The notes beneath the pieces are model-generated. The model was not told where the DNA came from, made no database searches, and saw only the letters and a list, made by a program, of their open reading frames with translations. The position numbers and the translations under genes are program-made. A stretch of DNA of 25,996 bases from assembly GCF_003334315.1 (NCBI RefSeq), contig NZ_QOWR01000064.1; one strand, written 5' to 3'. Each line of letters starts with the position of its first letter. The stretch's first letter is position 1. Shown piece by piece: positions 14,011 to 16,193 of the stretch. The DNA is from Escherichia coli. Lineage in GTDB: Bacteria; Pseudomonadota; Gammaproteobacteria; Enterobacterales; Enterobacteriaceae.

Positions 14011-14268
14011 TTAACGCGGAGAAACCCGGTAATGTGCAATGCAGCGCCAGACACCATCCTGCTGGCAATAAATTGACTCAGTCAGCCCAGGGATCACCCA
14101 TTGTATTTCCTCGCCGGGGGGACAGGTCAGCCAAATGCATAACCCGCAGCCGCCGCGTAAATCACGGGGAATATCGCTGACGCGAAAAGTCATGCCCGCT
14201 GCCTGCAACGCTTTGCGGGTTTGTATGACGCCGACTGTGGAGTGAAATAAAAATAAAAACTCTTTCAT
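14011..14268 (-). CDS. Small Cys-containing protein (85 aa), DUF3343-like, translationally coupled to yjiL
   Basis: ATG 14268-14266 overlaps the yjiL stop (ATGA); GAGGA RBS 7 nt upstream. The pattern [41 protein letters not shown] resembles what I recall of DUF3343 (F-x-S/T-x-h-x-A… P-x-P-R… C-G). The family call is from memory and unverified. Confidence 0.55.
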
Positions 14269-15032
14269 CGGCGTGTCCTCACTCGTTGACCAATTACCGC
14301 CGCGCCAATTGCGCCAGCAAATTGCGCATCAGGATGGGTATTTACCGGCATTCCCAGGTGAGATTCCAGCATCCGGGCAAACGTCTGGCAATGACTAACG
14401 CCACCAGTAAACAGAATCGGCGCTTCACAGGAGAGACGAGCAATGAAATTGGCACTCCTCCGCGCCATCGCGTTAATCACTCCGGCGAGAATCGCTTCTG
14501 GCGCGACGCCCGCTGAGCGCAGGCTGATCACTTCTGATTCAGCAAACACTGTGCACATACTCGTGATGGCGTGCGGCGTGACATTTTCGGTAATGCTGTC
14601 GAGTTGCTCGACGCTGGTGCCAAGCGTGCGCGAGATCACCTCCAGGAAACGCCCGGTGCCCGCCGCGCATTTGTCATTCATCAGGAAATCGCACAGGTTA
14701 CCGTCATCATCAAGCTGAATCACTTTGCTGTCCTGACCACCGATGTCGATTACCGCGCGCGTTGCTGGCGCAAGAAACCGTGCGCCCAGCCCATGACAGG
14801 AGATTTCCGTCACTTGTTTATCGGCAAAATCCACCAGTTGCCGTCCATAGCCGGTGAGCGTCAGAAACGGCGTTGTCTCTAACCCTTCGCGCAGAGTTTC
14901 CCAGGCTTCAGTAATTGCTGTTGCCGGACGAAAGGGTGTTGGAACGAGGAAACGGCGCGTAATCACGCCGTCTGCCAGTAAGATCCCTTTGGTGGCGGTA
15001 GAACCAGAATCAATGCCAATCGAATATGTCAC
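14265..15032 (-). CDS. yjiL: YjiL, BadF/BadG/BcrA/BcrD-type ATPase (activator of 2-hydroxyacyl-CoA dehydratase-like enzymes), 255 aa
   Basis: N-terminal ATPase motif IGIDSGSTATKG. Start assigned to GTG 15032-15030 (GGAG RBS 5 nt upstream); the upstream GTG at 15038 sits inside the RBS. Confidence 0.8.
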   Translation of the reverse strand: MTYSIGIDSGSTATKGILLADGVITRRFLVPTPFRPATAITEAWETLREGLETTPFLTLTGYGRQLVDFADKQVTEISCHGLGARFLAPATRAVIDIGGQDSKVIQLDDDGNLCDFLMNDKCAAGTGRFLEVISRTLGTSVEQLDSITENVTPHAITSMCTVFAESEVISLRSAGVAPEAILAGVINAMARRSANFIARLSCEAPILFTGGVSHCQTFARMLESHLGMPVNTHPDAQFAGAIGAAVIGQRVRTRR

Positions 15033-15041
15033 TGCCACTCC

Positions 15042-16193
15042 TTACAGCATCTCAATAAAGGCCGCGACACGGGTACTGAGCTGCCCGACATCTGAGGTGG
15101 AGTAGTCTGTTTCAATAGCGATATAAGGAATGTTGTGCTGCTGACGCACATGACGTTTAATCGCCAGCGATTCCACCGCGTAGGTATGGCACGCCTGCAA
15201 AATCACATCAACTACGCCATCGACCTGATATTCTTCCACCATCTGGCTGAGCATTTGCAGGCGCTGATCGTTCGGCGAAACACAGGAGCAGCCAATCGCC
15301 AGATATTTATCCGCCAGTGCGTCGTAGACATCGCCCGTTTCTGCCACGCATTGCTCGGTCGCTTTCGCCCCGGTGCAGTTTTCATAACCGACAACCCAGC
15401 CGCCATTCTCTTCAATCGCGCGCACCACTTTTTCTGCTGCGCCGCCAATCGGGCAGCCGGTGATTAAAATGCGTGGACGCAGGGCCAGCCGCTGGCCTTC
15501 TTCCCACTGCTGACGAACGCGGGCTGTCATCGCGTCCAGTTCATTGATCAACGCCTCTTTATCGAACCGGAAGGTTGCGCCGTAGACCACTTTCAGAATG
15601 TCGCTGCCGCTAAGCGCCGGAGGATTTAACTGCCCAAGATGATAAAAATTAGCCAGTGCGCGACGTTCGCGGTTTTTCAGCGCAATGGCATCGCGCAGAG
15701 CATCTTCGCTAATCTCGTGCCCAAAACGTTCTTCTACCGTTTTTTGCAAGCGCAGCATCTCGGCTTTCCATAACGCACGCGAGGCATCGTCCTTAACGCT
15801 GTTCGGCAACTGCATCACATGAACGGGCTTAAACTCCGCCATGTATTCATACATTTTCTTTTTGCCGTCGCAGGTGGTTTCACCGACCACCAGATCCGAA
15901 AAGTAGAAGTAGGGGCATTTATCGGTTTTGCCAAAGCCGTAGCTGCTTTTAATCAGCGGGCAGAGGTTGCGCGGCAGATCTTTCTCCGCTTCTTCAATGG
16001 TTTCATCAGAGGTAGAACAGAGCGAAACCACAACCGCACCGGCTGCCATCGGGATCTCTTGCGGCATAAAGGTGCAGTAAGTGCCAACCAGCGGAATGCC
16101 GCGCTCCTTGAGATCCATGACGGTGAGAAAGCCTTTCTGGCGAGCTTCAGAGAACTGATCGAAAATGGCGGGTAGATCGGTGATAAGTGACAT
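15042..16193 (-). CDS. yjiM: YjiM, 2-hydroxyglutaryl-CoA dehydratase D-component (HgdB-like) family protein, 383 aa
   Basis: Start at MSLITDL… (ATG 16193-16191, AGGAA RBS upstream); Cys-rich, consistent with Fe-S cluster binding; stop lies 10 nt before the yjiL start (operon). Confidence 0.8.
   Translation of the reverse strand: MSLITDLPAIFDQFSEARQKGFLTVMDLKERGIPLVGTYCTFMPQEIPMAAGAVVVSLCSTSDETIEEAEKDLPRNLCPLIKSSYGFGKTDKCPYFYFSDLVVGETTCDGKKKMYEYMAEFKPVHVMQLPNSVKDDASRALWKAEMLRLQKTVEERFGHEISEDALRDAIALKNRERRALANFYHLGQLNPPALSGSDILKVVYGATFRFDKEALINELDAMTARVRQQWEEGQRLALRPRILITGCPIGGAAEKVVRAIEENGGWVVGYENCTGAKATEQCVAETGDVYDALADKYLAIGCSCVSPNDQRLQMLSQMVEEYQVDGVVDVILQACHTYAVESLAIKRHVRQQHNIPYIAIETDYSTSDVGQLSTRVAAFIEML

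What the first reader, a model, noticed from the sequence alone, without database searches (positions are those of the whole stretch)
14011..16193. yjiM-yjiL operon (2-hydroxyacyl-CoA dehydratase-like component plus its ATPase activator) ends in a translationally coupled small Cys protein
yjiM (HgdB-like) and yjiL (BadF/BcrAD-type ATPase) are almost contiguous (stop to start 10 nt). The yjiL stop overlaps the ATG of an 85-aa ORF (ATGA) that has its own GAGGA RBS and a CGLC motif, resembling what I recall of DUF3343 small proteins. To my recollection no gene is annotated between yjiL and yjiK in K-12, so this may be a missed third component of an uncharacterised ATP-dependent radical or Fe-S enzyme system. 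The ORF-track version of yjiK (323 aa) would overlap it, which may be why it has been overlooked; the shorter GTG start for yjiK resolves the overlap.
Basis: partly seen in the sequence, partly recalled or inferred. Interest (0 to 1): 0.45.

Follow-up and report, generated by a model that had tools for sequence, protein, structure and literature searches.

The report
ytiA: known small gene after yjiL
The 85-codon reading frame that overlaps the end of yjiL is real, but it is already annotated as ytiA, a small single-cysteine protein of a family thought to carry selenium or sulfur, and it is a conserved third gene of an uncharacterised anaerobic iron-sulfur reductase operon.

Summary
The sequence observation is correct. 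An 85-aa ORF (14011..14268, minus strand) starts in an ATGA overlap with the yjiL stop, has a GAGGA 7 nt upstream and carries a CGLC motif. It matches Pfam PF11823 (Se_S_carrier, formerly DUF3343; E 5e-13).

The claim that it is unannotated is wrong. It is ytiA (b4715) in K-12 MG1655 and is named in almost all complete RefSeq E. coli genomes. The "dehydratase" label is outdated: YjiM is a double-cubane [8Fe-9S] cluster reductase (NF040772) and YjiL is its ATPase partner.

The "third component" idea holds up. All 21 gammaproteobacterial species loci sampled keep reductase, ATPase and DUF3343 in that order, with overlapping stop and start. ytiA is under purifying selection (dN/dS 0.14-0.21).

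In Firmicutes, 13 of 59 YjiM-orthologue loci have a DUF3343 gene within 8 kb. These often lie in tight operons with YedF and an EF2568-type desulfurase, or inside selenium-dependent xanthine dehydrogenase clusters with SelD and YqeC.

Most likely YtiA carries Se or S on Cys41 for the YjiM/YjiL reductase. That step is inferred, not shown. As an annotation finding this is already known. The selenium link is a modest lead.

The parts
15042..16193 (-). yjiM: double-cubane [8Fe-9S] cluster protein (DCCP), 383 aa
   Evidence: NF040772 at 531 bits against a cutoff of 350. 39% identity to the DCCP of C. hydrogenoformans (PDB 6ENO), phmmer E 5.6e-75. Annotated as such in RefSeq.
14265..15032 (-). yjiL: ATP-dependent activase/reductase partner (BcrAD_BadFG family), 255 aa, GTG start
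   Evidence: TIGR00241 at 364 bits against a cutoff of 125. K-12 annotation coordinates. AAGGAG lies 5 nt upstream of the GTG.
15038..15043 (-). Shine-Dalgarno AAGGAG for yjiL, overlapping the yjiM TAA stop
   Evidence: Read directly from the sequence.
14011..14268 (-). ytiA: 85-aa PF11823 (Se_S_carrier/DUF3343) protein
   Evidence: Pfam E 5.4e-13 over residues 4-59. Annotated as ytiA b4715 in K-12 and across RefSeq E. coli. dN/dS of 0.14-0.21. AlphaFold2 model with pLDDT 91.
14265..14268 (-). ATGA overlap of the ytiA start with the yjiL stop (translational-coupling geometry)
   Evidence: Read from the sequence. Stop and start overlap in 21 of 21 gammaproteobacterial loci: 17 have (A/G)TGA, 2 have TAATG and 2 overlap by 8-11 nt.
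14276..14280 (-). GAGGA Shine-Dalgarno for ytiA, inside the 3' end of yjiL, 7 nt before the ATG
   Evidence: The upstream sequence is ...GAGTGAGGACACGCCG-ATG.
14137..14148 (-). Codons for C41-G-L-C44. Cys41 is the family-invariant cysteine.
   Evidence: C41 is invariant in the 46-sequence PF11823 alignment. C44 is invariant only in the 19-sequence enterobacterial alignment A1; homologues elsewhere have CGLS, CGLA or CGLG.
13086..13946 (-). yjiK (SdiA-regulated domain protein), accepted GTG start. A downstream neighbour, not part of the system.
   Evidence: The K-12 annotation is 286 aa and leaves a 64-nt gap after ytiA. In O157:H7 it is separated from ytiA by an inserted espX6 gene.
16194..16308 (-). 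yjiN-yjiM intergenic region, the presumed operon promoter region
   Evidence: yjiML is listed as a directly FNR-activated operon in K-12 (Myers 2013, PMC3688515). The simple scans located no clear promoter or FNR box here.

Best explanation
The ORF is ytiA, a real and already annotated gene. It is the third cistron of the anaerobically induced yjiM-yjiL-ytiA operon.

YjiM is a double-cubane [8Fe-9S] cluster reductase. YjiL is its ATP-hydrolysing electron donor. YtiA is an 85-aa ferredoxin-like protein of Pfam PF11823 whose one family-invariant cysteine (Cys41) sits in a loop before strand 3.

Ribosomes finishing yjiL at TGA most likely restart at the overlapping ATG, helped by the GAGGA 7 nt upstream, so YtiA would be made together with YjiL.

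The most likely role of YtiA is a dedicated chalcogen carrier. It would hold selenium or sulfur on Cys41 as a perselenide or persulfide and pass it to, or take it from, the ATP-driven YjiM/YjiL reductase. This would tie the enzyme to the supply of reduced selenium for SelD-dependent pathways.

Shown here: gene identity, family membership, operon geometry, conservation and genomic associations. Inferred: translational coupling, chalcogen loading of Cys41, and any physical or catalytic link to YjiM/YjiL.
For: Identity:
- PF11823 match at E 5.4e-13.
- Annotated as ytiA b4715 and in RefSeq E. coli generally.
- Purifying selection: dN/dS is 0.14-0.21 for ytiA, 0.05-0.15 for yjiL and 0.035-0.06 for yjiM.

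Partnership with the reductase:
- The order reductase-ATPase-DUF3343 occurs in 21 of 21 gammaproteobacterial species loci, from Escherichia to Morganella, Hafnia and Aeromonas. Stop and start overlap in all of them.
- The same trio sits in other chromosomal neighbourhoods in L003 and L009, so it moves as a unit.

Chalcogen link:
- Only F8, P34 and C41 are invariant across 46 diverse family members.
- Distant family members lie next to YedE-like transporters, TusA/DsrE (YedF-like) proteins, class-V desulfurases and YqeC.
- Among 59 Firmicutes orthologue loci of YjiM (57-69% identity), 13 have DUF3343, 11 have YedF (TIGR03527), 5 have SelD, 4 have YqeC and 4 have selenium-dependent XDH within 8 kb.
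- These include tight operons: YedF, EF2568-type desulfurase, DUF3343, DCCP, activase in L092; and DUF3343, desulfurase, YedF, activase, DCCP in L079, L082 and L087.

Literature:
- NF040772 proteins occur almost only in SelD-positive genomes, 955 of 970 (Haft 2022 preprint).
- duf3343 and yedF are among the top five genes overlapping selD (Kayrouz 2022 preprint).
- DUF3343 was proposed as a Se/S chaperone, and a STRING table links it to 'enzyme activase' and an HgdB-like subunit in Slackia (Lin 2015).
- yjiML is directly FNR-activated (Myers 2013).
Against: - I found no experimental evidence that YtiA is translated, binds Se or S, or contacts YjiM or YjiL. The held literature had no paper on E. 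coli ytiA.
- In E. coli and the other Gammaproteobacteria sampled, no other selenium gene lies near the trio.
- 46 of 59 Firmicutes YjiM-orthologue loci have no DUF3343 within 8 kb, so the reductase does not always need an adjacent carrier.
- Selenium and sulfur cannot be told apart from sequence. Lin 2015 found no Se-specific subfamily.
- The Firmicutes counts are not phylogenetically independent, and no matched control loci were available.
- There is no solved structure for the family. The best Foldseek hit against the PDB has E 0.03 and is a generic PII-like fold.
Confidence: 0.55

Rival explanations
1. YtiA is a maturation factor rather than a substrate carrier. It would deliver the extra bridging sulfide (or a selenide) needed to join two [4Fe-4S] cubanes into the [8Fe-9S] cluster of YjiM.
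For: - It is a single-Cys carrier-type protein fixed next to the cluster protein in 21 of 21 gammaproteobacterial loci.
- A desulfurase-family gene is adjacent in many Firmicutes DCCP loci.
- Haft 2022 lists, as a formal possibility, that the SelD link reflects the make-up of the cofactor itself.
Against: - Most Firmicutes orthologue loci lack a nearby DUF3343.
- The C. hydrogenoformans enzyme is described as a two-component system of DCCP and DCCP-R, with no third protein mentioned (Jeoung and Dobbek review).
- Family members also sit next to YedE, YqeC and SelD where no DCCP is present. That fits general trafficking better than a DCCP-specific assembly role.
Confidence: 0.15
2. YtiA is a thiol-redox or regulatory subunit, for example a CxxC disulfide protein that tunes or protects the oxygen-sensitive YjiL/YjiM pair, and has no chalcogen-carrying role.
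For: - All 19 sequences of the enterobacterial alignment A1 have a C41-x-x-C44 motif.
- Coupling to yjiL suggests matched production with the ATPase.
Against: - C44 is lost in trio-linked homologues from Hafnia (CGLS), Aeromonas (CGLA) and Morganella (CGLG), while C41 is kept. It is not conserved family-wide.
- The family's gene neighbourhoods are overwhelmingly Se/S trafficking.
Confidence: 0.12
3. ytiA is a functional gene that merely shares the transcript. Its product works elsewhere in general Se/S trafficking and has no specific link to YjiM/YjiL.
For: - No direct interaction data exist.
- DUF3343 genes occur in many unrelated contexts.
- ytiA evolves faster than its neighbours.
Against: - The order and the overlap are kept in 21 of 21 loci across families as distant as Aeromonadaceae.
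- The trio is kept together when it sits in different chromosomal neighbourhoods.
- DUF3343 recurs in the same operons as DCCP in Firmicutes, in several different gene orders.
Confidence: 0.13
4. The ORF is a chance reading frame or a decaying remnant, not a protein-coding gene.
For: It is short, overlaps neighbouring genes in some gene models, and has a poorly conserved C-terminal third. That tail is even replaced in O157:H7.
Against: - Significant Pfam match.
- dN/dS well below 1.
- Intact frame in species with saturated synonymous divergence.
- Confident AlphaFold2 fold, pLDDT 91.
Confidence: 0.02

Closest known systems
Pfam PF11823 (Se_S_carrier, formerly DUF3343) small proteins, proposed Se/S chaperones (Lin et al. 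2015, PMC5322559)
   Same: YtiA is a member. It has a significant HMM match, the typical size of 80-100 aa, and the single family-invariant cysteine preceded by a conserved Pro-Arg.
   Different: - Most discussed members sit beside YedF, Sec-lyase-like desulfurases, SelD, YedE or YqeC.
- YtiA and its gammaproteobacterial orthologues sit only behind a double-cubane reductase and its ATPase.
- The 19 sequences of the enterobacterial alignment A1 add a second Cys, giving CGLC.
- No member has been characterised biochemically as far as I could find.
DCCP/DCCP-R of Carboxydothermus hydrogenoformans (CHY_0487/CHY_0488; PDB 6ENO, 7YYL)
   Same: - YjiM is 39% identical and keeps the cysteines that are invariant in the alignment.
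- YjiL is the adjacent BcrAD_BadFG ATPase.
- The review by Jeoung and Dobbek names YjiM/YjiL as a class II example.
   Different: - The described system has two components, and no third small protein is mentioned.
- YjiM lacks the N-terminal channel-closing helices, so a larger substrate is thought possible.
- The physiological substrate is unknown for both.
TusA / YedF (PF01206) single-cysteine sulfur and selenium relay proteins
   Same: These are also small, single-Cys carriers encoded next to desulfurases and chalcogen-using enzymes. This is what YtiA probably works like. YedF and DUF3343 occur together in DCCP operons.
   Different: - There is no sequence relationship: Pfam reports only PF11823 for YtiA.
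- The Cys context is PR-x-L-x-x-x-CG rather than the CPxP motif of TusA (my own knowledge of TusA).
- The fold topology differs.
2-hydroxyacyl-CoA dehydratases (HgdAB/HadBC) with activator HgdC/HadI
   Same: They share ancestry with the HGD-D domain and the BcrAD_BadFG ATPase, and the same logic of ATP-driven electron injection.
   Different: - YjiM is far below the family cutoffs: HadC 96 bits against 700, HadB 19 bits against 750.
- It has no alpha/beta partner gene.
- It belongs to the double-cubane branch.

Membership tests
Pfam PF11823 (Se_S_carrier / DUF3343) | Significant match to the family HMM | tested here: met
   hmmscan gave i-Evalue 5.4e-13 and 48.7 bits, covering residues 4-59 against model positions 2-57 of 69.
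Pfam PF11823 (Se_S_carrier / DUF3343) | Small stand-alone protein of about 80-100 aa | tested here: met
   YtiA is 85 aa. Orthologues are 79-91 aa.
Pfam PF11823 (Se_S_carrier / DUF3343) | The highly conserved cysteine noted by Lin et al. 2015 | tested here: met
   C41 is invariant in 46 diverse sequences, and G42 is nearly so.
Pfam PF11823 (Se_S_carrier / DUF3343) | Actually binds or transfers selenium or sulfur | not testable with these tools
   This role is proposed from gene context only. No biochemical study was found.
Double-cubane cluster protein system (DCCP plus DCCP-R), for YjiM/YjiL | Match to NF040772 above the curated cutoff | tested here: met
   531.3 bits against a cutoff of 350.
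Double-cubane cluster protein system (DCCP plus DCCP-R), for YjiM/YjiL | Conserved cluster-ligand cysteines shared with the solved DCCP | tested here: met
   C40, C59, C78, C108, C273, C304 and C335 (plus C93 and C302) are invariant in the alignment with 6ENO. The review states that YjiM shares the seven-Cys motif. I did not map each Cys onto the structure.
Double-cubane cluster protein system (DCCP plus DCCP-R), for YjiM/YjiL | Adjacent BcrAD_BadFG-type ATPase partner | tested here: met
   YjiL scores 364 bits on TIGR00241 against a cutoff of 125. It lies 9 nt downstream of yjiM.
Double-cubane cluster protein system (DCCP plus DCCP-R), for YjiM/YjiL | Contains an [8Fe-9S] cluster and performs ATP-dependent reduction | not testable with these tools
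   Inferred by homology only.
   HadC scores 95.8 bits against 700 and HadB 18.7 bits against 750. The operon holds a single HGD-D gene.
Translationally coupled operon | Start codon overlapping the upstream stop, with an internal SD, conserved across species | tested here: met
   ATGA with GAGGA 7 nt upstream. Overlap is kept in 21 of 21 gammaproteobacterial loci. Actual coupling of translation was not tested.

The most novel reading that the evidence does not exclude
YtiA would be the dedicated selenium carrier of the YjiM/YjiL double-cubane reductase, and the trio (with YedF and an EF2568-type lyase in Firmicutes) would be the missing ATP-driven reductive step. That step would turn bound or oxidised selenium into the selenide used by SelD, for example for the labile selenium cofactor of molybdenum hydroxylases. 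This would give a physiological substrate to a nitrogenase-like cofactor that has none so far, and would make it testable in E. coli K-12.
Probability: 0.25. Interest if true: 0.7.

Novelty: already known. Interest (0 to 1): 0.3.

Why it matters
As a gene call it changes nothing, because ytiA is already in the K-12 and RefSeq annotations.

What is worth keeping is the context. The literature on double-cubane cluster proteins describes a two-protein system with no known physiological substrate. The selenium literature treats DUF3343 as an orphan "chaperone".

Here the two are joined. They form a fixed, overlapping three-gene unit throughout the Gammaproteobacteria sampled. They also share operons with YedF, an EF2568-type lyase, SelD and selenium-dependent xanthine dehydrogenase in several Firmicutes lineages.

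This fits the published statistical link between double-cubane proteins and SelD. It also points to a simple genetic system for asking what these enzymes do: E. coli, an FNR-induced operon and a single-cysteine protein.

Tried and rejected
- **Viral contigs scan for YjiM relatives:** nothing found, as expected. A wasted scan.
- **Word-indexed protein search with YjiM:** returned only close enterobacterial orthologues (86-99% identity), so it was no use for distant context. I replaced it with a four-sequence alignment that included the 6ENO sequence and scanned genome contigs.
- **NCBIfam search for YtiA:** no model matches.
- **PDB searches for YtiA:** no meaningful hit by sequence or by Foldseek. 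The best hit is a PII-like fold with E 0.03 and TM about 0.45, so no functional inference was drawn from the fold.
- **Long "fusion" hits to the YtiA profile:** P0246, P0261 and P0264 are frameshift chimeras of the YjiL C-terminus and YtiA. P0275 and P0351 are unrelated repeat proteins. None was used as Rosetta-stone evidence.
- **Scan for an FNR box upstream of yjiM:** only a 2-mismatch site inside the end of yjiN, and total matches are no more than chance. The promoter and terminator scan found no more sites than its shuffles and none in the yjiN-yjiM gap. The promoter remains unlocated.
- **Rfam scan of 13000-17000:** nothing.
- **Literature searches for E. coli ytiA and b4715:** only the unrelated B. 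subtilis ytiA (a ribosomal protein L31 paralogue) turned up, so I found no translation or proteomic evidence.
- **Docking prediction of YtiA with YjiM or YjiL:** not attempted, because the structure tool returns no interface measures.
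Full report
**1. What is in the sequence**

All genes in this part of the window lie on the minus strand.
- yjiM runs 15042..16193.
- yjiL follows after a 9-nt gap. Its annotated GTG start is at 15032, preceded by AAGGAG, which overlaps the yjiM stop codon.
- The yjiL TGA (14267-14265) shares three bases with the ATG (14268-14266) of an 85-codon ORF that ends at 14011.
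- A GAGGA lies 7 nt upstream of that ATG.
- The ORF encodes [14 protein letters not shown]...[16 protein letters not shown]..., with the CGLC motif at residues 41-44.
- The 323-codon reading of yjiK would overlap the ORF by 47 nt. The accepted K-12 start corresponds to the GTG at 13946, which leaves a 64-nt gap.

**2. It is not unannotated**

- A 501-nt probe across the ORF matched 5386 of 5426 complete RefSeq E. coli genomes.
- The feature under the match is named 'ytiA: DUF3343 domain-containing protein', or 'putative Se/S carrier protein'.
- In K-12 MG1655 (NC_000913.3) it is ytiA, b4715, YP_009518833.1, at 4563668..4563925, between yjiK and yjiL.
- The window itself is a non-K-12 strain. 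It is 97.4% identical to MG1655 over 9.8 kb, and YtiA differs at one residue.

The guess of DUF3343 was right: Pfam PF11823, now called Se_S_carrier, matches residues 4-59 with E 5.4e-13.

**3. It is a real gene**

- Enterobacterial orthologues are 52-96% identical. H9, D32-I-P-R35, R38 and C41-G-L-C44 are invariant, and the C-terminal third is variable.
- Against other Escherichia, Citrobacter and Atlantibacter-like alleles, dN/dS for ytiA is 0.14-0.21. For the same pairs it is 0.05-0.15 for yjiL and 0.035-0.06 for yjiM. Selection is clearly purifying but weaker than on the enzymes.
- An AlphaFold2 model built from a 46-sequence alignment is confident (pLDDT 91). It shows a beta-alpha-beta-beta-alpha-beta-beta sandwich, with the conserved Pro-Arg...Cys stretch in the loop before strand 3.
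- No solved structure resembles it beyond a generic PII-like fold.

**4. What the neighbours are**

- YjiM scores 531 bits on NF040772, the double-cubane-cluster anaerobic reductase model (cutoff 350). It falls far below the cutoffs of the 2-hydroxyacyl-CoA dehydratase subunit models.
- YjiM is 39% identical to the structurally solved [8Fe-9S] protein of Carboxydothermus hydrogenoformans, and the cysteines are invariant in the alignment.
- YjiL is an acyl-CoA dehydratase activase-type ATPase: TIGR00241 at 364 bits against a cutoff of 125.
- Jeoung and Dobbek name YjiM/YjiL as a probable class II double-cubane system, possibly with a larger substrate. They do not mention a third protein.
- Myers et al. 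list yjiML among operons directly activated by FNR under anaerobiosis.

The current and better-supported family is the double-cubane reductase.

**5. Is YtiA a third component?**

I scanned one genome per species with an alignment of four double-cubane proteins and kept the best 80 loci, which are 57-96% identical to YjiM. I then searched their six-frame ORFs with a PF11823 profile and with YjiL.

- All 21 gammaproteobacterial loci carry reductase, ATPase and DUF3343 in that order. They include Escherichia, Citrobacter, Klebsiella/Raoultella, Cedecea, Trabulsiella, Hafnia, Morganella and Aeromonas.
- The DUF3343 start overlaps the ATPase stop in all 21: 17 have ATGA or GTGA, 2 have TAATG and 2 overlap by 8-11 nt.
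- Two further metagenomic relatives, only 35-37% identical to YtiA, show the same trio in quite different chromosomal surroundings. The three genes therefore travel together.
- The second cysteine of CGLC is not kept in Hafnia, Aeromonas or Morganella. Cys41 always is.

**6. The wider family points to selenium or sulfur trafficking**

- Across 46 diverse PF11823 proteins only F8, P34 and C41 are invariant.
- Distant members sit next to a YedE-like transporter, a TusA/DsrE (YedF-like) protein, class-V desulfurases with TusA, and YqeC.
- Lin et al. proposed the family as a Se/S chaperone. Their STRING table for Slackia already lists an 'enzyme activase' and an HgdB-like subunit among its partners.
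- Kayrouz et al. found duf3343 and yedF among the five genes that most often overlap selD.

**7. The YjiM orthologues of Firmicutes sit in selenium neighbourhoods**

None of the 59 Firmicutes loci has a DUF3343 gene directly after the ATPase. Within 8 kb, however, the counts are:

| Marker within 8 kb | Loci (of 59) |
|---|---|
| DUF3343 | 13 |
| YedF (TIGR03527) | 11 |
| Class-V desulfurase | about 19 |
| SelD | 5 |
| MocA | 5 |
| YqeC | 4 |
| Selenium-dependent xanthine dehydrogenase (TIGR03311) | 4 |

All seven desulfurases that I annotated with NCBIfam because they lie beside DUF3343 (in L048, L061, L079, L082, L092 and L093) or in the L048-type arrangement are of the EF2568 type (TIGR01977, 410-455 bits against a cutoff of 377). 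The representative of the 16-locus desulfurase cluster, from L067, is instead NifS-type (TIGR03402).

Several arrangements are tight, same-strand operons:
- YedF, EF2568-type, DUF3343, reductase, ATPase in L092, with 4-nt overlaps between the first three genes.
- DUF3343, desulfurase, YedF, ATPase, reductase in L079, L082 and L087.
- In Enterococcus (L042, L055): reductase, ATPase, Se-XDH, MocA, EF2568, SelD, YedF, DUF3343, YqeC.
- In two clostridial loci (L052, L089): YqeC, YedF, SelD, reductase, ATPase, MocA, Se-XDH.

A 16-kb window is about half a percent of such a genome, so these frequencies are far above a naive chance expectation. The loci are not phylogenetically independent, though, and I had no matched control loci.

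This agrees with Haft's report that 955 of 970 NF040772 proteins come from SelD-positive genomes. The classic papers on selenium-dependent hydroxylase clusters do not mention a dehydratase-like or activase gene.

**8. Most likely mechanism**

- *Shown by others:* FNR activates the operon under anaerobiosis.
- *Shown here:* the three cistrons are packed so that ytiA initiation overlaps yjiL termination, and this geometry is conserved.
- *Inferred by homology:* YjiL uses ATP to push low-potential electrons into the [8Fe-9S] cluster of YjiM.
- *Inferred from family conservation and context:* YtiA holds selenium or sulfur on Cys41 and either presents it to, or receives it from, the reductase. This would link the enzyme to the supply of reduced selenium.

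I put about 0.55 on this combined statement. Gene identity and operon membership are near certain, and the carrier step is about even odds.

The rivals are:
- a role in building the bridging sulfide of the cluster;
- a thiol-redox or regulatory role, weakened by the loss of C44 in trio-linked homologues;
- simple co-transcription without a functional link, weakened by the conserved synteny in different neighbourhoods;
- a chance ORF, which is refuted.

**9. Verdict**

- As a finding it is already known.
- The useful residue is the link between an orphan Se/S carrier family and an orphan nitrogenase-like reductase, with E. coli as an easy test bed. That is a moderate lead rather than a surprise, given Haft's published SelD correlation.

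Noticed in passing
window 13900-14400 (yjiL 3' end, ytiA, yjiK 5' end): E. coli genomes split into two deeply diverged versions of this segment. 2593 genomes are at least 99% identical to the window and 2014 are only 90-95% identical, with few in between. Synonymous divergence between the window and an E. coli of the other type (L017) is about 0.4-0.5, nearly as high as against a cryptic Escherichia clade (L015). This suggests an old imported or balanced haplotype.
   Followed up: partly
window about 14011-14058; locus L095 3133-5924: In O157:H7-type genomes, homology to the window stops at 14058. A T3SS effector gene, espX6, lies between ytiA and the SdiA-regulated-domain gene, and YtiA has a different C-terminal tail (88 aa). 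The last 16 or so residues of YtiA therefore seem dispensable.
   Followed up: partly
locus L001 (E. coli strain 510016), 1-5317: The strain whose ytiA region is 100% identical to the window has an IS66 element that truncates yjiN just upstream of yjiM. It also has a frameshifted yjiK and a kptA with an internal stop. In the window itself yjiN and yjiK are intact ORFs.
   Followed up: no
loci L042 and L055 (Enterococcus), 8001-17152; L052 and L089 (clostridia): A YjiM-type double-cubane reductase and its ATPase are embedded in selenium-dependent xanthine dehydrogenase maturation clusters, alongside Se-XDH, MocA, EF2568-type desulfurase, SelD, YedF, DUF3343 and YqeC. The papers on these clusters that I checked do not mention them.
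   Followed up: partly
locus L006 4932-6255: A PF11823 gene overlaps the end of a YedE-like (PF04143 Sulf_transp) transporter gene by 14 nt. This is another coupled pairing of the family with a putative selenium or sulfur transporter.
   Followed up: no
window about 19035-19070 (by offset from K-12 4568692..4568727; not verified in the window): K-12 annotates a 36-nt CDS (11 codons plus stop), ytiE (b4823), upstream of mdtM. I did not check whether it is intact in this strain.
   Followed up: no
window 16194-16214: The mechanical ORF list extends yjiM to a GTG at 16214 (390 aa) and yjiL to a GTG at 15038 (257 aa). The annotated starts are the ATG at 16193 (383 aa) and the GTG at 15032 (255 aa), and these fit the Shine-Dalgarno spacing better.
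   Followed up: yes
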